Of a DNA stretch of 64,000 bases, positions 52,975 to 64,000 are shown piece by piece. How positions within the stretch are numbered: the stretch's first letter is position 1; the number at the start of each line of letters is the position of its first letter. Origin of the DNA: a virus. Its lineage: Duplodnaviria > Heunggongvirae > Uroviricota > Caudoviricetes. Below the pieces are notes generated by a model, which was not told where the DNA came from, searched no databases, and worked only from the letters and a program-made list of their open reading frames with translations. The DNA lies in IMG/VR virus record IMGVR_UViG_2778261161_000002; one strand, written 5' to 3'. The position numbers and the translations under genes were made by a program.

Positions 52975-53206
52975 TGCACCGTTCCTTCATGCAATCAAAA
53001 TGACTTTTATGTTATAAAAATAATCAGCCAAATCAACATGATTTAGGCCAAATTTCTGTCAAAAAATAAAATCCACAAAAAGTGGTTGACACTATTTTGG
53101 AAATCACAAACTGCACATAATCCATCGCGCTAACGGCTCCCGTTGAAGGTTCTTTTGACGATTAACTTTCAGCCGAAGCGCGGTAGGGAGTCATAACGCC
53201 AAAGCA

Positions 53207-53230
53207 GGCCGCCATGTGCGGCCTTTTTTT
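53207..53230 (+). terminator. Rho-independent terminator GGCCGC-catgt-GCGGCC + T7
   Basis: Read directly; no obvious + strand gene upstream. Confidence 0.6.
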
Positions 53231-53257
53231 GTATCCGTCATCCGTGGAGGAAGGACA

Positions 53258-53911
53258 ATGGAAAAGATCGCAATATTCAGCCTGACCACCAGCAAGCCTC
53301 AAATGCTCACTGCAATACTGAAAGACGGTGCTCTCATTATTAACGAAGTAAAACCCCTTCCCGCGTCAGCATTGGAGCAAAAGCAAAAAATTCCTCCAGC
53401 TATAGCAGCCCTGCGGAAAAGCAAATTTAAGGTACTGGTAGACGAAATTACGCCAACGATCTCCGCTGGCACCGGAGCAAGCCAGGTGACTCTCAAGACC
53501 CGTCATGCCGATGGCAGAGCAGCAATCATCGTCGGGATGGAGAGATACAGAGAGTTAAAACTCCAGAAGCTATTATCCCTGCCGCAAAATAACAAAGGTG
53601 CTTTCGAAATCCCCGACTCCATCGTTGACACCGAATACAACGGTAACGGAGAAGAAGTCTACCGGGTGAACTGGCAGGATATCAGGCCGGAACATATTCT
53701 GATGATCCTGTGTTGCTACGCGACCGTATACCACAACGTTGCCAGTGCAGATTACGTAGAGCAGATGACCGGTACAGTCGAGAAAGAGCAAAAAACAGGC
53801 ATACTCGCTTCGTTCCTTTCCATTATTGGGCATGAAAAAGTTAAAGCAGGCACCTCCCAGCCAAAGTCACTGGCCGGGAAAGAAGTTGATGAAGATACCG
53901 TGATACTTTGA
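53258..53911 (+). CDS. Hypothetical protein, 217 aa
   Basis: Start at MEKIAIF preceded by GGAGGAAGG. Confidence 0.5.
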   Translation: MEKIAIFSLTTSKPQMLTAILKDGALIINEVKPLPASALEQKQKIPPAIAALRKSKFKVLVDEITPTISAGTGASQVTLKTRHADGRAAIIVGMERYRELKLQKLLSLPQNNKGAFEIPDSIVDTEYNGNGEEVYRVNWQDIRPEHILMILCCYATVYHNVASADYVEQMTGTVEKEQKTGILASFLSIIGHEKVKAGTSQPKSLAGKEVDEDTVIL

Positions 53912-54224
53912 TCACATTAGTAGCTTTGTTAACTCCCTCAATACCAGGTAGAAGAGTAACAAAAATATTGACGCAAGTATTTGCGTGGTCAATGAGGCGT
54001 TCATAAACAGATCAATAAGCTTTAACAATTCTAGAATAACATCCATGTCATTCACTCCGTTTAATTTTTAATCTAATGCCAGCAAATGAAGCTGGCCCCC
54101 GCATAAAGATTAATGAAAGTCACTTGTCACCAGTGAGGGGATCCCTGAACTGGTGGCCTGTCTGTTTCTCGCATTTCACACCCTGCATACAGTTTCCCCC
54201 AGGTTATGACTGAGAGGCTTTGTT

Positions 54225-54554
54225 ATGGGCTATAGCAGACTCGACGATAGGTACATTGAAGACGATATTTTTCGTGCGCTGTTTCACCAGGAAATGATTA
54301 AGCGGGTATCGGAGTATCACTCTGATAATTTCCAGTACACGATAAAGATTGATGAAGTATATCGTTCAGACCTTGCAGCCTACAGGGCGTATGGCAATGC
54401 AGATTTGCGCTGGGTATTCCGGGTGCTGGTGGGCCATGAGTCAGAAATGGAAGAAATGCCCGCAGGGACCACGTTAACTCTTCCTGATGTGGCATGGCTG
54501 AGGAACAAGATCCGTGATTACGCAAGCGCGGAACCGGAGATAGAAAATGCCTGA
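54225..54554 (+). CDS. Tail protein X-like (LysM-like) protein
   Basis: YTIKIDEVYRSDLAAYRAYGN ... MPAGTTLTLPDV resembles P2 gpX. Confidence 0.4.
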   Translation: MGYSRLDDRYIEDDIFRALFHQEMIKRVSEYHSDNFQYTIKIDEVYRSDLAAYRAYGNADLRWVFRVLVGHESEMEEMPAGTTLTLPDVAWLRNKIRDYASAEPEIENA

Positions 54555-55740
54555 TTTCCTGAAAAACCAGGACGGGCGCTATATCACTGACGGCCTGTCC
54601 TCTAAGGACTTCACGCGTTTATTCGACCTTATCAGGAAAGAACAAACCCGTAAGCGCCGACAAGCTCACCGGACGCTGACGCCAGGTAGACTGAGGAACA
54701 AATCCGCCGAAGATATTCTCAAGTTAGGGAAGAAAAAAGGCGGCACGTTCTTCACGCGAGACGACCTGAAAGGTTTCGAAAAGCTACGGAGTAAAACGCG
54801 CGAAAAATATGACAGCAAGACGGCTGGCATCACATACGCCCAGCTGGTGGCATCCAGCCAGGCAATCGATATTAAGCGTGCAAATAACGCCGTGGATGAC
54901 GGATCTGGTATCAAAAGAGCTACACCCGTATCTCTTCGCCACAATGTGATTAATATCCGCGTAGAAGCATCGGATATATCCGTCCACCAGCACCATATCG
55001 TCCGGATACGCTTTGAAGAATGGGAGCAGATGGTTGATGACATCGCAGAAGACGATAAATCAGCTCTCAAAATCACTAAATCACTGTGCGCCGGGCGAGT
55101 GTCTTTCGATTGTGACTGTGGTCGTCATCAATACTGGTATCGTTACATCGCCACTGCGGGTAACTTTGCCCTGGCACCGCCAAAAGAATACGCCTATCCA
55201 AAAGTTCGCAACCCGAAGCTGCAAGGCGTCGCCTGTAAACACGTGATCCACTCAATGACGCGGTTACAGTCCGCCAGTTGGCAAATGAGTATTGCTCGTG
55301 CGCTACAAAAGGCTGCAACGCAAATTGCATTTGGTGACGATCGCCGCCGTACAACCAAACACTTCTCAAAAGAAGACGAGAAGGAGTTTAATCGCAATCG
55401 TAGCAGTAAAACGAACGTTGAAGCCGCCAAACGCGAATGGAGGCTCTATCAGAAGCGCCAGGCAGCTTTAAGTACAAAACTGGCAAAGGACAACGGCAAG
55501 ATCGACAAACTACGTGACCAATTGACCAAGGCCAGAAAGTTGTCAGATGCACAGAAAAAACGGGCGGCAGCAAAAGAAGCGGCCTTGCAACGTGAGAAAC
55601 AGAAAAACAAGGAGCTTCAGCAACGCCTTGCCGATCAGTTCGCACTGAAGAAGCAGGCGTTCATTGATGCGCTTGTCATGGCTGGAACACCACCAGCACA
55701 AGCTGAAAAAATGTTCATGGAGTATGTAAAAAAAGCATAA
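54547..55740 (+). CDS. Hypothetical protein with SWIM-type zinc-finger-like motif and K-rich coiled-coil tail
   Basis: FDCDCGRHQYWYRYIATAGNFALAPPKEYAYPKVRNPKLQGVACKHVIH. Confidence 0.45.
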   Translation: MPDFLKNQDGRYITDGLSSKDFTRLFDLIRKEQTRKRRQAHRTLTPGRLRNKSAEDILKLGKKKGGTFFTRDDLKGFEKLRSKTREKYDSKTAGITYAQLVASSQAIDIKRANNAVDDGSGIKRATPVSLRHNVINIRVEASDISVHQHHIVRIRFEEWEQMVDDIAEDDKSALKITKSLCAGRVSFDCDCGRHQYWYRYIATAGNFALAPPKEYAYPKVRNPKLQGVACKHVIHSMTRLQSASWQMSIARALQKAATQIAFGDDRRRTTKHFSKEDEKEFNRNRSSKTNVEAAKREWRLYQKRQAALSTKLAKDNGKIDKLRDQLTKARKLSDAQKKRAAAKEAALQREKQKNKELQQRLADQFALKKQAFIDALVMAGTPPAQAEKMFMEYVKKA

Positions 55741-55773
55741 ACCACACATAGCCTAGCTGCCTAGGCTAGGCTT

Positions 55774-56502
55774 TCATCTTTTTGAAAAATCAATTTCCGT
55801 TTTATCAAATAAATTTGAAATATCAGCAACCAATTTATTAAAATCATGATCGCCATTATAAAGCGAAGTCTTCTTTATTGCCATTACAAAATCATATAAC
55901 TTTTCTGGGGAGTCAATACCAACCCCTCTACTTTTAAAAAGCTCAATGATAACTCCAACATCATCATATAATAACTTTATTGCCGCCATAATCTCTTTTT
56001 GCTGCCTAAGCAATCTCTCAAGTTCATTTTTATTTTCATCCATAATTCTTTTGTTGAATTGTGTATCATTAATACTTTTTATTATTTCAGTCTCTTTTAT
56101 TTGCAACGCCTTTCTTTTATTTTGATCCATGTCGGCATCCAAATACCTTATCTCTGTATATATTTTACTTGTTAGCTTTGATACGCAAAGAGTGACAATC
56201 GGAGCTGCAATTGATGCAATAATTCCAAAAATAAATGGCAAGCAAAAATGATAAAGCCAAGGAGACAAAACGCCTTCATAAACTAGAGGAATCTTACCTC
56301 CAACAAATGTTACAGATAAAGTATATAGGATATCATCCTTTGACTTCATCAATATTAGTATATCTTTCCAATTAATAATTAGAAAAGAAATTAATATATA
56401 TGCAAACACTTTATTAAAAAGCTTGTCTTTTATGGCATCTCCAAAAGATACTTTTATTAGATCATTTTCAGTCAATTTTTCTGTTGATGAATCTGTATTC
56501 AT
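55774..56502 (-). CDS. AT-rich membrane protein (candidate abortive-infection/exclusion effector), 242 aa
   Basis: TM segments then coiled-coil; low GC relative to flanks. Confidence 0.5.
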   Translation of the reverse strand: MNTDSSTEKLTENDLIKVSFGDAIKDKLFNKVFAYILISFLIINWKDILILMKSKDDILYTLSVTFVGGKIPLVYEGVLSPWLYHFCLPFIFGIIASIAAPIVTLCVSKLTSKIYTEIRYLDADMDQNKRKALQIKETEIIKSINDTQFNKRIMDENKNELERLLRQQKEIMAAIKLLYDDVGVIIELFKSRGVGIDSPEKLYDFVMAIKKTSLYNGDHDFNKLVADISNLFDKTEIDFSKR

Positions 56503-56564
56503 ATAAACTACCGTGATTTCTAATATCTATTTTATGAAAATAGCGGTCATCCAGACCGCCAAAC

Positions 56565-56924
56565 TCAAATACCAACCAAGCTTTCAAGAGGAATGCCAAA
56601 CTGGGAATGTAAACGGCGAATCATAGGTAACGTCAAATTTCGTGTCCCATTTAGCACTTCGTAAACACGATTTGACTTACCAATCGCCGGTTCCAGATCC
56701 TTCACGGTCAGCCCTTGCTGTTCCATACGGAATTTAATGGCCTCAATAGGTGATGGTGGCTCAATTGGGTAATGTTTTTTCTCGTACTCCTCAATGAGAA
56801 GACTCATAACCTCAAAGAAATCACCTTCCGGAGTATTCATTTCCGGTTCGTTATCGAACATCGGTTCGACCGCACGCAGTGCGGCCTCATAATCTTGTTC
56901 TGTACGGATAGGTTTAATGTTCAT
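56565..56924 (-). CDS. HigA-like HTH antitoxin/regulator (E. coli YgjM type)
   Basis: C-terminal GLTVKDLEPAIGKSNRVYEVLNGTRNLTLPMIRRLHSQFGIP resembles HigA HTH. Confidence 0.6.
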   Translation of the reverse strand: MNIKPIRTEQDYEAALRAVEPMFDNEPEMNTPEGDFFEVMSLLIEEYEKKHYPIEPPSPIEAIKFRMEQQGLTVKDLEPAIGKSNRVYEVLNGTRNLTLPMIRRLHSQFGIPLESLVGI

Positions 56925-56936
56925 TAATTACAAAGG

Positions 56937-56962
56937 AAAGCCCACTTGCTAAGTGGGCTTTT
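56937..56962. terminator. Hairpin AAGCCCAC-ttgctaa-GTGGGCTT + T-run
   Basis: Between higA and HigA-like gene. Confidence 0.55.
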
Positions 56963-56980
56963 TGTATGTGTTTTACTATA

Positions 56981-57319
56981 TCAGGCTGCTTTTTTATTCA
57001 GGTTCCGCTGAGAAATAAATTTTTCAGCAGTATTGATACGACTTAACTCTTCCTGAACGCGCATATCATTTTCGACTTCCCACAGATCTACTGCGGTCTG
57101 AAGATTAATCCAAAAATCTACAGAAGTATCGAATGCTTTTGCCAGGCGATATGCCATATCCATCGTTAGCTTACGATTATTATTAACAAGAGCACTTACG
57201 GTGTTACGATGAACATGAAGTATTTCTGCTAACTCGTTGATCTTCAGCTCTAACGGCTCCAGGTATTCGTACAGCAGGATATCACCTACGGTCGTCGGTT
57301 TTCTGGTTGCCTGTTTCAT
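56981..57319 (-). CDS. higA: HigA antitoxin (XRE-type HTH)
   Basis: TVGDILLYEYLEPLELKINELAEILHVHRNTVSALVNNNRKLTMDMAYRLAKAFDTSVDFWINLQ. Confidence 0.8.
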   Translation of the reverse strand: MKQATRKPTTVGDILLYEYLEPLELKINELAEILHVHRNTVSALVNNNRKLTMDMAYRLAKAFDTSVDFWINLQTAVDLWEVENDMRVQEELSRINTAEKFISQRNLNKKAA

Positions 57320-57389
57320 TTTTTGCCCTTACTAGCGTGCGTATTAAGTGGACTCTGGTCAGAACCCGGTCCGTAACCGGGTATCTGTT

Positions 57390-57692
57390 TTAGTATTTGT
57401 GAGGGTCGAGATACAAGTCCTCGGCCTTTCCGTTAACCCACTTAAAAATTAACCTATATTGCTTATTCACCCTTACTGATGAATAGCCATTTAGCTTCCC
57501 TGACAGTTCCTCATACCGATTACCTGGTGGTGATCTTAAATCCTTACAGGTAGTTGCGGCATTGATAATGTCCAACTTCCGTGACAATGTCATATGAATA
57601 TCAGGAGGTATCTTTCTATGTGGTGTTGAAAATTCAAAAAAATCATCAAGCCACGCATCCCTGAAATCCTTTATGTTAATTTTTTTGGTCAT
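57390..57692 (-). CDS. higB: HigB toxin (RelE/ParE superfamily)
   Basis: YRLIFKWVNGKAEDLYLDPHKY C-terminus; upstream of higA. Confidence 0.75.
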   Translation of the reverse strand: MTKKINIKDFRDAWLDDFFEFSTPHRKIPPDIHMTLSRKLDIINAATTCKDLRSPPGNRYEELSGKLNGYSSVRVNKQYRLIFKWVNGKAEDLYLDPHKY

Positions 57693-57842
57693 TAGTCATT
57701 TGATCCTCCGTGATGATTACCGAATGCCATAACTATAGCGCACCGTTGCACTGTGCGCAAGTGCATTTTATGAATTCCCCCTCCTTCATCCAAAATCACA
57801 ATCTCCCGAAAATCTTCCTTTCGATACCTGACAGATCGACCT

Positions 57843-58646
57843 TTGAGGATGCTTATGGGCCGTTTTGACGAATGGTTTGCTGACGATGTAAACCTGGCAA
57901 GTAAGGAGTCAGAACATGACTGCACGCAGAGAGAAACGCCAGCGCCGATTGAAGCGAATGCAGGAGGCGCGCCGGAACATGGCAATACCAGTTCGGATTC
58001 ATTCAGCATTCTGGAAGAGCAACCCGCCGCCAAAGCTGATAGCCATGATAATTTTGCTGATAGCAACGGTGGCCTTACTCCGGACGCTGGCGAATCAAAT
58101 ATAGCCACACTTCCACCTTCCCTGGCTGGCAGAGAACCGACTCCACAGCTAAAAGCACGCTATAACGGGCATAAAGCCTTTAACGACCAAATCCGCGCAG
58201 ACTGGATGCTGATTATTGAATCCAGCCCAGACGCGTTTCAGGCTCTCTTATATCGACCAGATGTTGGCACATATGGGGTAGTCAGCGACGAAACAGGAGA
58301 AGAGTCATTCACTGAACTGGATAACAACCAGCGCGAACTGACTTACCAGGAACCTGAAATCGTTTATGTGCTGGATAACCCGGACGGGCGTGACTCTCTC
58401 CATGCGATTGACGCAGACGGTGAGCAGGATGGCTTAACCGATGATGTTCTGATTCTGCGTATTGCAGCAAATAACGTCCCCGTCGGATCAATTCTTGAAT
58501 GGAATGAAGAGATGGTAAACGGCGTAGCCCGCCGCTGGTGGTACGTGCACCGTATTTTTAGCTACGGCACACAGCATGTTGGTTCGCTTTACTACTGCAT
58601 ACCGGCCAGGAATTTTGATACGACTCAAAACGGAGTGATCGAATGA
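57843..58646 (+). CDS. Hypothetical acidic protein (start uncertain)
   Basis: ORF track; N-terminal low-complexity region. Confidence 0.35.
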   Translation: MRMLMGRFDEWFADDVNLASKESEHDCTQRETPAPIEANAGGAPEHGNTSSDSFSILEEQPAAKADSHDNFADSNGGLTPDAGESNIATLPPSLAGREPTPQLKARYNGHKAFNDQIRADWMLIIESSPDAFQALLYRPDVGTYGVVSDETGEESFTELDNNQRELTYQEPEIVYVLDNPDGRDSLHAIDADGEQDGLTDDVLILRIAANNVPVGSILEWNEEMVNGVARRWWYVHRIFSYGTQHVGSLYYCIPARNFDTTQNGVIE

Positions 58647-59410
58647 CTTCAAATAAAACCCTCCTGGCGCGAACAGGTGAATGGCAAACCTCACGCACAG
58701 GAAAATTCCAGACCACGGGCTTTGAAAGCGTGGATAACGCGTTTGCTACGCTAATCAGCAATATCTTTTCTGATATCTTACTGGTGGCCCCCGCGCCGGA
58801 AGAAAAACGCTTTGCGTCATTCCTGAATCGTCCACCAGCAGAGCGTGTCTATGTGGCCCGTTTCGACAATGCGATCGAGTTTCTTAAAGCAGTTCGTCGC
58901 GCAAATGCCGGGCAAGGGAGAAAACCTGAAAACCAGAACATTAACCGGGATGCTCTCCCCCTGGTCAATATCTCACGCACTATGGATATCAATTATATCA
59001 ACGATGATCAGCAGATTGACCGCAAAAAAGTAGCCAGTTTTTGCGAACCGGATACCGGAATGCCTTTAGCAGAACTGGAATACACCCAGGCCATTCTGAC
59101 GTATGACGTTACGTTAATGGCAACTGATAAAGCGACCATGAGTCTGATGTGTAATTCGCTGGGCGCACGGCTTCGCCTGATGACAGGTACACAATTTGAA
59201 GCAACCACTCACCTTGTTCGTGTCCCGGTCCCGCTGATTTGCTCGATACAGGATGCCAAAGAAGTCGGATTTACGGATGTTTCGGCACCAATTGGAGAAG
59301 AGCGTATTTATGCCACACAAGCGCCGATAAGTGTGATTGCAGACGTGATCACAGCATGGGAGTTGGACGCAAAACGTATTATTACCGAAACCTCGATATC
59401 TATGGGGTGA
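58643..59410 (+). CDS. Hypothetical protein (possible virion structural), 255 aa
   Basis: ORF track; ATGA coupling. Confidence 0.45.
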   Translation: MTSNKTLLARTGEWQTSRTGKFQTTGFESVDNAFATLISNIFSDILLVAPAPEEKRFASFLNRPPAERVYVARFDNAIEFLKAVRRANAGQGRKPENQNINRDALPLVNISRTMDINYINDDQQIDRKKVASFCEPDTGMPLAELEYTQAILTYDVTLMATDKATMSLMCNSLGARLRLMTGTQFEATTHLVRVPVPLICSIQDAKEVGFTDVSAPIGEERIYATQAPISVIADVITAWELDAKRIITETSISMG

Positions 59411-59413
59411 TAA

Positions 59414-60394
59414 GTGGCCCAGGAGTTACAACAATATTTTCTACAGTCAGTGCTCATTAACGATAACAAAGTGCCACGAGACTGGATTTTTACCGCAGTA
59501 TATGTAGAAAAAACCAGCCTCAAAGCCCCTTTGCTAAAACTGGAAATTCATGACGCTACCGGCACCGTAATTGATGACTGGAAAGCCAAATACGGTGCAT
59601 CGCTGGTGGCTGAAATGGGCGATCCAAACGGTAATGTAGGCACTTTTAAAACAGATTTCTTTGTTACGTCTGCAATGCTGGCTGGTGATGTTGTTACCGT
59701 TATTGCTGTCAGTGAAGACGTGCGCAGGTTTAAGATCCCCTCCCCGCGCACAAATTTACATACCAACAAAACACCAGACGCTATATTCAAGGCATATTCC
59801 GGCAAGCTTAAAATTACCAGCAGCGTGCTAAAACGCGCAGTTACATATCATCTGAATGCTGGTGACAAACCGTCAAAAATGCTTTCGGAGATAGCGCGAG
59901 ACAAAGGTGCATTGTGTTGGGTATGTCGGGGGGAATTTAACTTTTACACCCTGGCTGATCTGATGAAGCAAACGCCATCATTTACCTACGAGGGGAATAA
60001 CCCTAAAGCAGAATACACTTTGTCAAAAATGCGCCTACTCCAACAGGAACATGCGTCAACAGCAAAGAATCAATATCGTTTTGTTGGGTATTCCATGACC
60101 GATGGCTACGTCGAATATGGCGATAGCTCACTCCCAGTGCGTTATATATCCGACTCTGATATGGAAACTCTTCGCAATATGCAGCTGTCTCTCGTCCCCA
60201 AAATGGATATAGAAGTCGCAGGCAATCCTGATATAAAACCGGGGATGGTAATAGAGATTATCGTATACCGCTATGACCAGGAAAACCGCATTGATGAATC
60301 AATGCCCCGTAAGCTGATAGTAAAAAATGTTGCGCACTTTGAGGACCGCGTAGGCTACACAACACGAATGATATTGGGAGTGCCGAACAAATGA
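59414..60394 (+). CDS. Hypothetical protein (possible baseplate component), 326 aa
   Basis: ORF track; coupled to spike-like gene. Confidence 0.45.
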   Translation: MAQELQQYFLQSVLINDNKVPRDWIFTAVYVEKTSLKAPLLKLEIHDATGTVIDDWKAKYGASLVAEMGDPNGNVGTFKTDFFVTSAMLAGDVVTVIAVSEDVRRFKIPSPRTNLHTNKTPDAIFKAYSGKLKITSSVLKRAVTYHLNAGDKPSKMLSEIARDKGALCWVCRGEFNFYTLADLMKQTPSFTYEGNNPKAEYTLSKMRLLQQEHASTAKNQYRFVGYSMTDGYVEYGDSSLPVRYISDSDMETLRNMQLSLVPKMDIEVAGNPDIKPGMVIEIIVYRYDQENRIDESMPRKLIVKNVAHFEDRVGYTTRMILGVPNK

Positions 60395-61044
60395 AGCGTA
60401 GAGCGCAAATTGTTGGAACTGTGCACCCGGCAGGGCTTATGCGTGCTCAAGTCCGTGTTTTACCTGACTGGAATGGCGTTCCTGATGACGATCTACCCTG
60501 GGCGGAATACCAGTTACCCATCGGGAACGCTTTTGTACCTACAGTCAAAGGTGACCTGGTCTGGGTAGAGTTTCCTTATTTAGATGTTAACGGTCGAATA
60601 GACACCAGACGCCCAATGATAGTTGGTGCCGCTCAGGATGCACCGGGAGGAATTCCAAACGTTGCACCAGAAGCATCTGGCAAAGGCAACGGCTGGACGC
60701 CGCCGGAAGTAGATGGAGCACCTCCCCGCCCCCAAATCTCAGCAACGAAAGACTTCGTTATTCACCGCAACAATATTCTTGAAGTACGAACTGCTGGTGG
60801 CGGCTATGAAATTGCCAATACGGCAGCTGGCTCAAGGATTGGCATGAATGAGTCCGGGCAGATATATATCATTGGTCCGGCTGATGTAATCGTGAATGCA
60901 GGAGGGAGTGTTAACGTCAAATCAGCCAACAACATCAATGTTAATGGGGAAAATATAGCTGTCACCGCTAACGGGGACATAGCTTTCAAGGCAGGAGGAA
61001 CCTTTCAGGCCACTGCTGGCAACTTCGATTTCAAGAAAGGATAG
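60391..61044 (+). CDS. Baseplate spike/gpV-like protein
   Basis: N-terminal OB-like GDLVWVEFPYLDVNGRIDTRRPMIVG and C-terminal beta-helix-like repeats VNAGGSVNVKSANNINVNGENIAVTANG. Confidence 0.55.
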   Translation: MKRRAQIVGTVHPAGLMRAQVRVLPDWNGVPDDDLPWAEYQLPIGNAFVPTVKGDLVWVEFPYLDVNGRIDTRRPMIVGAAQDAPGGIPNVAPEASGKGNGWTPPEVDGAPPRPQISATKDFVIHRNNILEVRTAGGGYEIANTAAGSRIGMNESGQIYIIGPADVIVNAGGSVNVKSANNINVNGENIAVTANGDIAFKAGGTFQATAGNFDFKKG

Positions 61045-63619: not shown

Positions 63620-64000
63620 TTAACCTAACTTCGCCCAGGTATCACGCAGCCCAACGGTGCGGTTAAATACCGGTTTTTCCGCCGTAGAATGGCGGCTGTC
63701 GAGGCAGAAATAACCTTCACGCTCAAACTGGAATGCTTTACCCGCTACCGCTTCTTTCAGCGACGGTTCAGCAAAGCCTTGTTTGATCACCAGCGATTCC
63801 GGGTTAATCACCGACAGGAAATCATCCGCAGCACCTGGGTTCGGCACGTTGAACAGACGATCGTACAGGCGGATTTCAACCGGCAGCGCATGTTCCGCGC
63901 TCACCCAGTGAATAACGCCTTTCACTTTACGACCATCTGCCGGATCTTTGCTTAAGGTGTCGGCGTCATAAGTACAGAAGATGGTGGTGATATTGCCTTC
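63620..64000 (-). CDS. glnS: Glutaminyl-tRNA synthetase, 3' end (host gene, 5' part beyond window)
   Basis: [100 protein letters not shown] matches E. coli GlnRS C-terminus. Confidence 0.9.

What the first reader, a model, noticed from the sequence alone, without database searches (positions are those of the whole stretch)
54547..55740. SWIM-like zinc-finger protein with lysine-rich coiled-coil tail
A CxCx(n)CxH motif (FDCDCGRHQ ... VACKHVIH) is followed by a long K/A/Q-rich helix, downstream of a gpX-like LysM protein. SWIM fingers are rare in phage proteins; it may be a DNA-binding or virion-assembly factor.
Basis: inference. Interest (0 to 1): 0.35.

Follow-up and report, generated by a model that had tools for sequence, protein, structure and literature searches.

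The report
P1 gp25-type tail protein, SWIM-like finger
This ORF is the phage D6 copy of phage P1 gene 25, an essential "tail stability" gene whose protein has never been placed in the virion, and it carries a fully conserved SWIM-like zinc-finger motif that no record or paper I could search mentions.

Summary
ORF 54547-55740 (+) encodes 397 aa with C189-x-C191 and C230-K-H232, followed by an 88-residue K/A/Q-rich helix.

The window is 98.9% identical to the P1-like phage D6. The ORF is D6 orf74, the ortholog of P1 gene 25 ("tail stability"). In P1 this gene is defined by amber mutants, gives a weak signal in virion mass spectrometry, and is absent from all deposited P1 virion structures.

The four ligand residues are invariant in 134 of 134 diverse homologues (22-48% identity). 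The segment around them is the best conserved part of the family.

The native sequence does not reach the Pfam SWIM threshold. Three results still point to SWIM:
- SWIM is the only recurrent sub-threshold Pfam hit.
- With the family-specific ~27-residue insert removed in silico, the sequence hits only SWIM.
- A high-confidence AlphaFold2 core model matches phage proteins labelled "SWIM-type" but no PDB chain.

The gene sits in a conserved module, mat-26-25-7-24-6-5, that reaches prophages of Desulfovibrionaceae. All family members are strongly basic.

Best reading: a zinc-stabilised, probably oligomeric, low-copy tail-assembly factor. A DNA-end-binding role is not excluded. The gene is known; the domain assignment appears to be new. 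Interest is modest.

The parts
54547..55740 (+). Gene 25 ortholog (D6 orf74), 397 aa plus stop; 'tail stability' protein family (PHROG 1722)
   Evidence: ORF listed. The region is 98.9% identical in DNA to phage D6. The D6 annotation reads 'tail protein, similar to P1 gene 25'. PHROG 1722 matches at E 1.2e-196. P1 gp25 is 57% identical over residues 1-334.
54547..54816 (+). N-terminal basic helical region (residues 1-90; pI 10.4, net +12)
   Evidence: Full-length AlphaFold2 model: helices 19-39, 54-59 and 71-87, with moderate pLDDT. Composition. This region is net positive in 130 of 134 family members.
54817..55341 (+). Compact alpha/beta core domain (residues ~91-265) that contains the SWIM-like finger
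   Evidence: AlphaFold2 model of residues 88-290 built on a 130-sequence alignment: pLDDT 94.4, pTM 0.91. No PDB neighbour was found. BFVD neighbours include phage 'SWIM-type domain-containing' proteins at E 1e-5 to 6e-5.
55111..55119 (+). C189-D-C191, the first ligand pair, at the end of a beta strand
   Evidence: Invariant in 134 of 134 homologues. In the model, strand 185-189 is followed by a helix starting at residue 192.
55141..55227 (+). Family-specific conserved insert between the ligand pairs (residues 199-227; E214, P218, N222 and G227 invariant; K219 and L225 at least 90%)
   Evidence: Conservation. The insert is predicted as an ordered loop without regular secondary structure, with block pLDDT 94-97. 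Removing it in silico makes the segment hit Pfam SWIM.
55234..55242 (+). C230-K231-H232, the second ligand pair, at the N-terminus of a helix
   Evidence: Invariant in 134 of 134 homologues. The helix spans residues 231-239 in the model.
55417..55680 (+). 88-residue K/A/Q-rich amphipathic helix (residues 291-378), a probable coiled coil
   Evidence: AlphaFold2 predicts a single helix. Heptad register has 17 of 26 a/d positions hydrophobic, and periodicity gives p about 0.02 against shuffles. The P1 record notes similarity to myosin II heavy chain. The sequence is poorly conserved, but the region is basic in 131 of 134 members.
55681..55737 (+). C-terminal helix-turn-helix-shaped hairpin (residues 379-397). 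Most distant members have a longer, recognisable mini-domain here.
   Evidence: Helix 383-396 in the model. Alignment of family C-termini. Pfam gives no consistent assignment.
54225..54554 (+). Gene 26 ortholog (T4 gp53-like baseplate 'plug'/wedge protein), apparently translationally coupled to gene 25
   Evidence: PHROG 1269 at 2.3e-36. PDB 9ay5 'Gp26' at 1e-16. It lies upstream of the gene 25 homologue in 21 of 23 distant loci, adjacent or overlapping in most.
53258..53911 (+). mat ortholog, the first gene of the conserved module in D6 and in most distant loci
   Evidence: D6 annotation. Synteny.
55750..55772 (+). Terminator-like hairpin directly after the gene 25 stop codon. It can also fold on the minus strand (55768-55749).
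   Evidence: 9 pairs, 5 of them G-C, followed by a T-rich tail.
57855..61044 (+). The rest of the conserved module: gene 7 (stopper), 24 (tail terminator), 6 (hub) and 5 (spike) orthologs. Here they are separated from gene 25 by an inserted cassette.
   Evidence: D6 annotation. PDB 9ums 'Gp7' at 5e-42. Roles taken from the P1 cryo-EM papers.

Best explanation
The ORF encodes the D6-type ortholog of phage P1 gp25, a late, essential tail-morphogenesis protein known as 'tail stability'.

It has four parts:
- a basic helical N-terminus;
- a compact alpha/beta core, whose most conserved element is a SWIM-like CxC...CxH knuckle carrying a conserved ~27-residue insert;
- a long basic amphipathic helix;
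- a small C-terminal helical hairpin.

I propose that the four invariant ligands hold one structural zinc ion. The zinc would fix the conserved insert loop and its invariant polar residues (R193, R199, E214, K219, N222, K231) as a binding surface. The long helix would make the protein a dimer or trimer.

I also propose that the protein acts in low copy number, together with the other low-copy products of its operon: plug gp26, stopper gp7, terminator gp24, hub gp6 and spike gp5. It would be either a transient assembly factor or a flexible minor component in the axial channel. In both cases it would be needed to obtain stable, extended tails.

Shown here: orthology, module membership, invariance of the ligands, the predicted fold and its phage SWIM-type neighbours, and the conserved positive charge.

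Taken from the P1 literature: essentiality, the tail phenotype, the weak virion signal, and the absence from cryo-EM models.

Inferred: zinc binding, oligomerisation, the partner, and the location.
For: Identity: 98.9% DNA identity to phage D6. D6 orf74 is annotated 'similar to P1 gene 25'. PHROG 1722 'tail protein' matches at 1e-196. P1, P7, SJ46 and RCS47 gp25 are 57% identical.

P1 data:
- Genes 25 and 26 were found as amber mutants and so count as essential (PMC10695390).
- gp25 gave 2 peptides and 8.4% coverage in virions. The 6-copy stopper gp7 gave 2 peptides and 11.1% (PMC9024508).
- gp25 is absent from both P1 tail/baseplate models.
- The PDB copy holds P1 Gp7 and Gp26 but nothing that matches this family.

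Motif:
- C189, C191, C230, K231 and H232 are invariant in 134 of 134 members at 22-48% identity. Residues 185-235 are the best conserved block.
- The family has 632 clusters at 50% identity.
- Pfam SWIM is the only recurrent family, with sub-threshold hits in 21 of 114 members.
- Insert-deleted constructs hit only SWIM. The query scores 13-14 bits; a distant member scores 22.8 bits against a cut-off of 19.6. A ligand-to-Ala control gives no hit.
- The core model has pLDDT 94.4. The CxC lies at the end of a strand and the CxH at the N-terminus of a helix.
- BFVD gives 7 hits with E below 1e-3, two of them labelled SWIM-type.

Context:
- A gp26 homologue lies upstream of the gp25 homologue in 21 of 23 distant loci, adjacent or overlapping in most.
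- mat-26-25-7-24-6-5 is kept even in Desulfovibrionaceae.
- P1 transcribes 26-25-7-24-6-5 from the late promoter LP26.

Coiled coil.

Charge: all 134 members are net positive, with a median of +31.
Against: - No metal or oligomer data exist.
- The native sequence fails the Pfam SWIM threshold.
- The family profile does not significantly detect the canonical SWIM fingers of E. coli YehQ.
- The binding partner is unknown.
- The conserved strong positive charge of all three regions, including the globular core, is more typical of nucleic-acid binders than of tail structural proteins. A purely protein-protein role may therefore be incomplete.
- A CRISPRi knock-down of P1 gene 25 lowered plating only about tenfold. 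The authors attribute this to an ineffective roadblock.
- I could not read the original description of the mutant phenotype (Walker and Walker 1983). The phrase 'tail stability' is taken from annotations only.
Confidence: 0.6

Rival explanations
1. DNA-end-binding 'pilot' protein. gp25 would be a minor virion protein in the neck or tail channel. Its basic SWIM-like core and arms would bind the leading DNA end, and it would be ejected with the DNA. As a coiled-coil dimer it could hold two ends together, working like Mu N or T4 gp2. The tail-stability phenotype would then be a secondary effect of an incomplete channel or neck.
For: - Net charge is +36 and pI is 10.1. A strong positive charge is conserved in 134 of 134 members and in each of the three regions, although the tail sequence itself is poorly conserved.
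- From my own knowledge, SWIM-type fingers are used for DNA binding as well as protein binding.
- The virion MS signal is similar to that of a 6-copy protein, yet gp25 has never been modelled. The tape measure in the tail cavity is unresolved too.
- The gene lies next to those for the channel-lining stopper and terminator.
- Abortively transduced P1 DNA is described as a circle whose ends are joined by a protein (PMC8593670).
Against: - No DNA-binding domain was detected. Scans of the C-terminal mini-domain gave only inconsistent, noise-level Pfam hits.
- There is no significant similarity to T4 gp2.
- The annotated phenotype is a tail defect, not a DNA-stability defect.
- The electronegative tube lumen could equally explain selection for positive charge.
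Confidence: 0.2
2. Non-virion chaperone for the tape measure protein or the hub. The long basic helix would coat the helical tape measure (Sit in P1) or a hub intermediate during assembly and then be released, as lambda gpG/GT and T4 gp26/gp51 do.
For: - gp25 is absent from all virion models.
- Gonzales et al. suggest a chaperone or cofactor role for the unassigned proteins gp7, gp16 and gp25.
- The protein has a long helix.
- It is encoded in the same operon as the hub and spike.
Against: - Peptides were found in purified virions.
- There is no sequence relation to T4 gp26, gp28 or gp51.
- From my own knowledge, known tail assembly chaperones are small and acidic and are often made with a frameshift. 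This protein is 45 kDa and strongly basic.
- PmgB has already been proposed as the P1 tape measure chaperone.
Confidence: 0.15
3. Nucleoid-associated or transcriptional regulator. The homologue in Xanthomonas phage Rb1 is annotated 'transcriptional regulator MvaT', so the protein would control late gene expression.
For: - The GenBank annotation of the Rb1 homologue.
- The basic, K-rich composition.
- The adjacent gene mat is called 'maturation control'.
Against: - None of the 114 scanned members shows a recurrent H-NS/MvaT or other regulator hit. SWIM is the only recurrent family.
- The gene has a fixed position inside a structural tail module across phyla.
- P1 genetics assigns it a morphogenetic phenotype.
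Confidence: 0.03
4. The CxC...CxH residues are not a metal site. They would be conserved for another reason, such as disulfides or packing, and the resemblance to SWIM would be coincidental.
For: - The native sequence is below the Pfam threshold.
- The 38-residue spacer is longer than the range I recall for SWIM.
- The family profile does not detect YehQ.
Against: - Four residues of the classical ligand types are invariant at 22% overall identity.
- They lie at a strand end and at a helix N-terminus, as expected for a zinc knuckle.
- The structural neighbours are SWIM-type proteins.
- The ligand-to-Ala construct loses the SWIM hit.
- Disulfides are unlikely in a cytoplasmically assembled protein.
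Confidence: 0.05

Closest known systems
Phage P1 gp25 ('tail stability' protein; PHROG 1722), also found in P7, SJ46, RCS47 and D6 orf74
   Same: It is a full-length ortholog: 57% identity to P1 gp25 and 99% to D6 orf74. It has the same length class, the same neighbours (26 upstream; 7-24-6-5 downstream) and the same coiled-coil tail.
   Different: The last ~60 residues diverge from P1, and the tblastn alignment stops at residue 334. In D6 and in this window, a terminator and a minus-strand toxin-antitoxin cassette separate gene 25 from gene 7.
SWIM zinc finger (Pfam PF04434; CxCxnCxH)
   Same: The ligand pattern and order are the same. The CKH[VI] helix start is typical of SWIM. SWIM is the only recurrent Pfam hit in the family. 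The insert-deleted sequence aligns across both ligand pairs of the profile.
   Different: The spacer is 36-43 residues because of a conserved ordered insert. The native sequence is below the gathering score. The finger is embedded in a ~170-residue alpha/beta core rather than being a ~40-residue module.
Stand-alone phage 'SWIM-type domain-containing' proteins (Achromobacter phage Motura A0A514CSJ7, Burkholderia phage BcepSauron A0A482MLT0; also an uncharacterised protein of Erwinia phage Y3)
   Same: The predicted fold of the whole core matches, not only the finger. Foldseek gives E 1e-5 to 6e-5, probability 1.0 and 147-192 aligned columns.
   Different: They are only 12-21% identical and 139-223 aa long. 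They lack the basic N-terminus and the coiled-coil tail. Their function and genomic context are unknown and were not examined here.
Mu N (DNA circularisation protein) and T4 gp2 (DNA end protector)
   Same: This is a functional analogy only. Both are encoded in or beside tail or neck gene clusters and bind DNA. From my own knowledge, both are low-copy virion proteins.
   Different: No sequence relation to T4 gp2 was found. Mu N was not tested. DNA binding by gp25 has not been shown.
T4 hub-assembly proteins gp26 and gp51
   Same: They are essential tail-assembly proteins encoded beside hub genes that are not ordered virion components. Their sequences carry split Cys pairs.
   Different: There is no detectable homology. 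The size, charge and ligand pattern all differ.

Membership tests
P1 gp25 'tail stability' protein family (PHROG 1722) | Full-length sequence similarity to P1 gp25 | tested here: met
   PHROG 1722 matches at E 1.2e-196 over residues 2-396. tblastn against P1, P7 and RCS47 gives 57% identity at E 1e-112. D6 orf74 is 99% identical.
P1 gp25 'tail stability' protein family (PHROG 1722) | Position in the 26-25-7-24-6-5 late operon | tested here: met
   Gene 26 lies upstream and overlaps by 8 nt. Genes 7-24-6-5 lie downstream, after an inserted cassette. P1 has the same order, and so do distant loci.
P1 gp25 'tail stability' protein family (PHROG 1722) | Required for the formation of stable tails (amber-mutant phenotype) | not testable with these tools
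   Literature for P1 only: PMC10695390 and PMC9024508.
SWIM zinc finger (Pfam PF04434) | CxCxnCxH ligand signature | tested here: met
   C189-x-C191-x38-C230-x-H232. The ligands are invariant in 134 of 134 members. The spacer of 36-43 residues is longer than the canonical range I recall from memory.
SWIM zinc finger (Pfam PF04434) | Score at or above the Pfam gathering cut-off (19.6 bits) | tested here: not met
   The query and its fragments give no hit even at E 10. Of 114 members, 21 give sub-threshold hits, the best at E 0.0024. Artificial insert-deleted constructs score 13-14 bits for the query and 22.8 bits for member P0216.
SWIM zinc finger (Pfam PF04434) | Fold: ligands on a beta-strand end and a following helix N-terminus; structural similarity to accepted SWIM-type domains | tested here: inconclusive
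   The secondary-structure positions fit. BFVD neighbours include two UniProt 'SWIM-type domain-containing' phage proteins. However, no solved SWIM structure was matched in the PDB.
SWIM zinc finger (Pfam PF04434) | Binds one zinc ion | not testable with these tools
   This needs metal analysis of purified protein.
SWIM zinc finger (Pfam PF04434) | Reciprocal detection of a canonical SWIM protein by the family profile | tested here: not met
MvaT/H-NS nucleoid-associated regulators (annotation of the phage Rb1 homologue) | Match to an H-NS/MvaT family profile | tested here: not met
   No such family appears among the recurrent Pfam hits of 114 members or in the query.
T4 hub-assembly factors gp26/gp28/gp51 and T4 gp2 | Sequence homology | tested here: not met
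   hmmsearch with the family profile at maximum sensitivity against 13 T4 tail, neck and hub proteins gave no score above 0.2 bits.
   PHROG 1269 at 2.3e-36. PDB 9ay5 'Gp26' at 1e-16. Pfam Phage_tail_X and Phage_gp53 hits are only sub-threshold. The equivalence of P1 gp26 and T4 gp53 comes from the literature.

The most novel reading that the evidence does not exclude
gp25 is a zinc-finger DNA-end-binding protein carried in the tail or neck channel and ejected with the DNA. As a coiled-coil dimer it would hold the two DNA ends together. That would make it a candidate for the protein that joins the ends of abortively transduced P1 DNA into protected circles. To my knowledge this protein has never been identified. 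It would be a functional analogue of Mu N, unrelated in sequence.
Probability: 0.12. Interest if true: 0.75.

Novelty: new member of a known kind. Interest (0 to 1): 0.38.

Why it matters
P1 is the classical transducing phage, and its virion has now been modelled almost completely. gp25 is one of the few essential morphogenesis proteins with neither a location nor a biochemical role.

Three findings here turn "function unknown" into specific experiments:
- The family signature is an invariant SWIM-like metal site with a conserved insert loop.
- The whole protein is always strongly basic.
- The gene travels with the genes for the low-copy ring, hub and neck proteins across bacterial phyla.

The resulting experiments are ligand mutants, zinc analysis, partner screens and DNA-end binding tests. 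The result also corrects at least one misleading public annotation ("MvaT regulator"). It links the core to a set of small, uncharacterised phage SWIM-type proteins.

Tried and rejected
1. Pfam and NCBIfam scans of the query and of motif fragments gave no hit.
2. PDB sequence searches with the single sequence and with two family profiles returned only coiled-coil noise.
3. Foldseek against the PDB gave nothing below E 0.3, for both the full-length and the core model.
4. A family profile run against E. coli YehQ, a canonical SWIM protein, was not significant. I ran no further search on building a SWIM alignment for profile-profile comparison.
5. I tested the idea that the C-terminal mini-domain is an HTH, HeH or SAP DNA-binding motif. 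It has the visual pattern AKxxG(I/V)(T/S)xxx(I/L)xx..KExGL. Pfam gave only scattered single weak hits (SAP, HTH_10, RecX_HTH1, IF2_N, SinI, LysM), so the idea is not supported.
6. I tested homology to T4 gp26, gp28, gp51, gp2, gp3, gp4 and others. None was found. The split Cys pairs in T4 gp26 and gp51 are only an analogy.
7. I compared the P1 LP26 late-promoter elements with the region upstream of gene 26 in the window. There was no clear match by eye, and I did not pursue it.
8. The Lobocka et al. 2004 P1 genome paper (PMC523184) is not held, so I could not read the original phenotype description.
9. Model coordinates are not exposed, so I could not measure ligand distances.
10. I did not examine the genomic context of the stand-alone SWIM-type phage proteins from BFVD, because I had neither their sequences nor their accession numbers.
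Full report
**1. What is there**

The ORF 54547..55740 (+) is real: ATG start, 397 aa. A GGAG box lies 7 nt upstream. The start codon overlaps the stop of the upstream ORF 54225..54554 by 8 nt, which suggests translational coupling.

The protein contains C189-D-C191 and C230-K-H232, and only one further Cys. Shuffling the protein produces a CxC...CxH arrangement within 60 residues in 38 of 200,000 trials.

The C-terminal third is K/A/Q-rich. AlphaFold2 models it as one 88-residue helix covering residues 291-378. The helix has a heptad-like hydrophobic periodicity (p about 0.02). The whole protein has pI 10.1 and a net charge of +36.

**2. Identity**

Window 53000-58800 is 98.9% identical to the P1-like phage D6. 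The ORF is D6 orf74, annotated 'tail protein, similar to P1 gene 25'.

It matches PHROG 1722 ('tail protein') at 1e-196. It is 57% identical to gp25 of P1, P7, SJ46 and RCS47 over residues 1-334.

The upstream gene is the ortholog of P1 gene 26. It matches PHROG 1269 at 2e-36 and PDB 9ay5 'Gp26' at 1e-16. This is the T4 gp53-like baseplate 'plug'.

**3. What is known about P1 gp25**

Genes 25 and 26 were defined by amber mutants and are treated as essential. A CRISPRi roadblock reduced plating only about tenfold, which the authors attribute to an ineffective roadblock (PMC10695390).

In virion mass spectrometry gp25 gave 2 peptides and 8.4% coverage. That is comparable to gp7, which gave 2 peptides and 11.1%. 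HHpred suggested no role for gp25 (PMC9024508).

Two cryo-EM studies model nearly every virion protein but never mention gp25. In them gp7 is the hexameric stopper, gp24 the terminator, gp26 the plug, gp6 the hub and gp5 the spike. The tape measure protein Sit in the tail cavity is unresolved.

The PDB copy used here contains P1 Gp7 and Gp26. It contains nothing that matches gp25 or profiles of its family.

The P1 GenBank record already notes the myosin-like coiled-coil region of gp25. It says nothing about a metal motif. Full-text searches found no paper that links gp25 to SWIM or zinc.

**4. Is the motif meaningful?**

A profile search of 1.84 billion representative proteins found 632 clusters at E of 1e-3 or better.

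In 134 full-length members that are 22-48% identical to the query, ten positions are invariant: C189, C191, C230, K231, H232, G94, E214, P218, N222 and G227. Residues 185-235 are by far the best conserved block. The spacer between the ligand pairs is fixed at 36-43 residues, mostly 37 or 38.

**5. Is it SWIM?**

The native sequence and its fragments give no Pfam hit. Three independent lines still point to SWIM:

- Among the 114 members scanned individually, SWIM (PF04434) is the only family that recurs. It appears in 21 members, with a best E of 0.0024.
- Deleting the 27-29-residue insert in silico makes the query segment hit SWIM and nothing else. The score is 13-14 bits, and the alignment covers profile positions 14-31, which span both ligand pairs. 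The same construct from the distant member P0216 scores 22.8 bits, above the 19.6-bit cut-off. A ligand-to-Ala control gives no hit.
- An AlphaFold2 model of residues 88-290, built on a 130-sequence alignment, is very confident (pLDDT 94.4, pTM 0.91). It places CxC at the end of a beta strand and CxH at the N-terminus of a helix. It has no PDB neighbour. It matches seven BFVD phage proteins at E of 1e-6 to 6e-5, two of which UniProt labels 'SWIM-type domain-containing'.

Against membership, the family profile does not significantly detect the canonical SWIM fingers of E. coli YehQ.

My conclusion is that this is a SWIM-like zinc knuckle with a conserved, ordered insert, embedded in a larger alpha/beta core. 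That core is shared with small uncharacterised phage proteins. Formal SWIM membership is plausible but not established.

**6. Context**

I examined 23 distant loci:

| Source | Loci or taxa |
|---|---|
| IMG/VR viral contigs | 13 contigs (L085-L097) |
| Isolated phages | Acinetobacter phage ABMM1, Xanthomonas phage Rb1 |
| GTDB genomes | Desulfovibrionaceae, Bilophila, Desulfosarcina, Desulfobacteraceae, Vreelandella, Psychrobacter, an unclassified Pseudomonadota MAG |

A gp26 homologue lies upstream of the gp25 homologue in 21 of these loci, adjacent or overlapping in most. Most loci with enough flank keep the order mat-26-25-7-24-6-5.

P1 transcribes 26-25-7-24-6-5 from the late promoter LP26. 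Every other product of this module with an assigned role is a low-copy ring, hub or neck protein.

In D6 and in this window the operon is interrupted after gene 25. A terminator-like hairpin lies at 55750-55772. It is followed by a minus-strand cassette holding orf73, two HTH antitoxin-like genes and a HigB toxin gene.

**7. Charge**

All 134 members are net positive, with a median of +31. The N-terminal region, the core and the tail are each positive in at least 130 members, although the tail sequence is barely conserved.

This indicates selection for binding a polyanion. Candidates are DNA and the electronegative tube lumen described for P1.

**8. Interpretation**

The most likely reading is as follows. 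A zinc ion held by the four invariant ligands fixes the conserved insert loop as a binding surface. The long helix oligomerises the protein. The protein then acts in low copy number with the products of its operon, either transiently or as a flexible minor component of the axial channel, and is needed for stable extended tails. I give this a confidence of 0.6.

The rivals are:

| Rival | Confidence |
|---|---|
| DNA-end-binding pilot protein analogous to Mu N or T4 gp2 | 0.2 |
| Released chaperone for the tape measure protein or hub | 0.15 |
| The motif is not a metal site | 0.05 |
| Nucleoid-type regulator, as annotated in phage Rb1 | 0.03 |

The regulator reading is not supported by any profile.

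The most novel reading that the evidence does not exclude concerns abortive transduction. Abortively transduced P1 DNA is a circle whose ends are joined by a protein (PMC8593670). gp25 could be that protein.

**9. Verdict**

The gene itself is already known and annotated. What appears to be new is the recognition of an invariant SWIM-like metal site as the signature of the family. The conserved basic character of the protein and the deep synteny of its module also appear to be new observations.

This is a useful lead for one of the last unplaced essential P1 proteins, but it is not a surprising new system.

Noticed in passing
window 55774-57692 (minus strand): A cassette holding orf73 (242 aa, PHROG 8191, unknown function), two HTH_3 antitoxin-like genes and a HigB-like toxin gene (Pfam 4e-35) sits between genes 25 and 7. 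It is flanked by terminator-like hairpins and splits an operon that is contiguous in P1 and in most distant relatives.
   Followed up: partly
window 53258-53911; loci L085-L091, L101, L102, L105, L106: The 'mat' (maturation control) homologue lies directly upstream of gene 26, often overlapping it, in distant prophages including Desulfovibrionaceae. It therefore looks like an ancestral member of the tail module. In P1 it is not next to gene 26. Its function is unknown (PHROG 1837).
   Followed up: partly
L003 8758-9879 (Xanthomonas phage Rb1, PQ569993): The gp25-family homologue is annotated 'transcriptional regulator MvaT'. A 2026 paper repeats this for the related phage GYRb1. No profile evidence supports it, so it is probably a misannotation caused by the K-rich tail.
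   Followed up: partly
L099 (phage T4) 43803-44429 (-) and 44480-45229 (+): The T4 hub-assembly proteins carry widely split Cys pairs. gp26 has C82-x-C84 and C187-x-x-C190; gp51 has C85-x-x-C88 and C185-C186. These may be zinc sites. There is no homology to gp25, only a parallel.
   Followed up: no
proteins P0195 and P0152 (distant family members): The C-terminal mini-domain (motif ...MLNxVAxxxxMTxxQLxxFxxEHGI) is duplicated in tandem in some members, and the linker length varies from 63 to 255 residues. This suggests a modular tethered binding domain. No Pfam family matches it.
   Followed up: partly
window 63620-64000 (minus strand, cut by the window end): By correspondence with D6 orf62, the window ends inside a phage-encoded glutaminyl-tRNA synthetase homologue. 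This is an unusual cargo gene for a P1-like phage-plasmid.
   Followed up: no
BFVD entries A0A514CSJ7, A0A482MLT0, A0A2H4IBE8 and others: A set of small (139-256 aa) uncharacterised phage proteins shares the whole predicted core fold of gp25, not only the finger. Some come from jumbo phages. Their genomic context was not examined.
   Followed up: no
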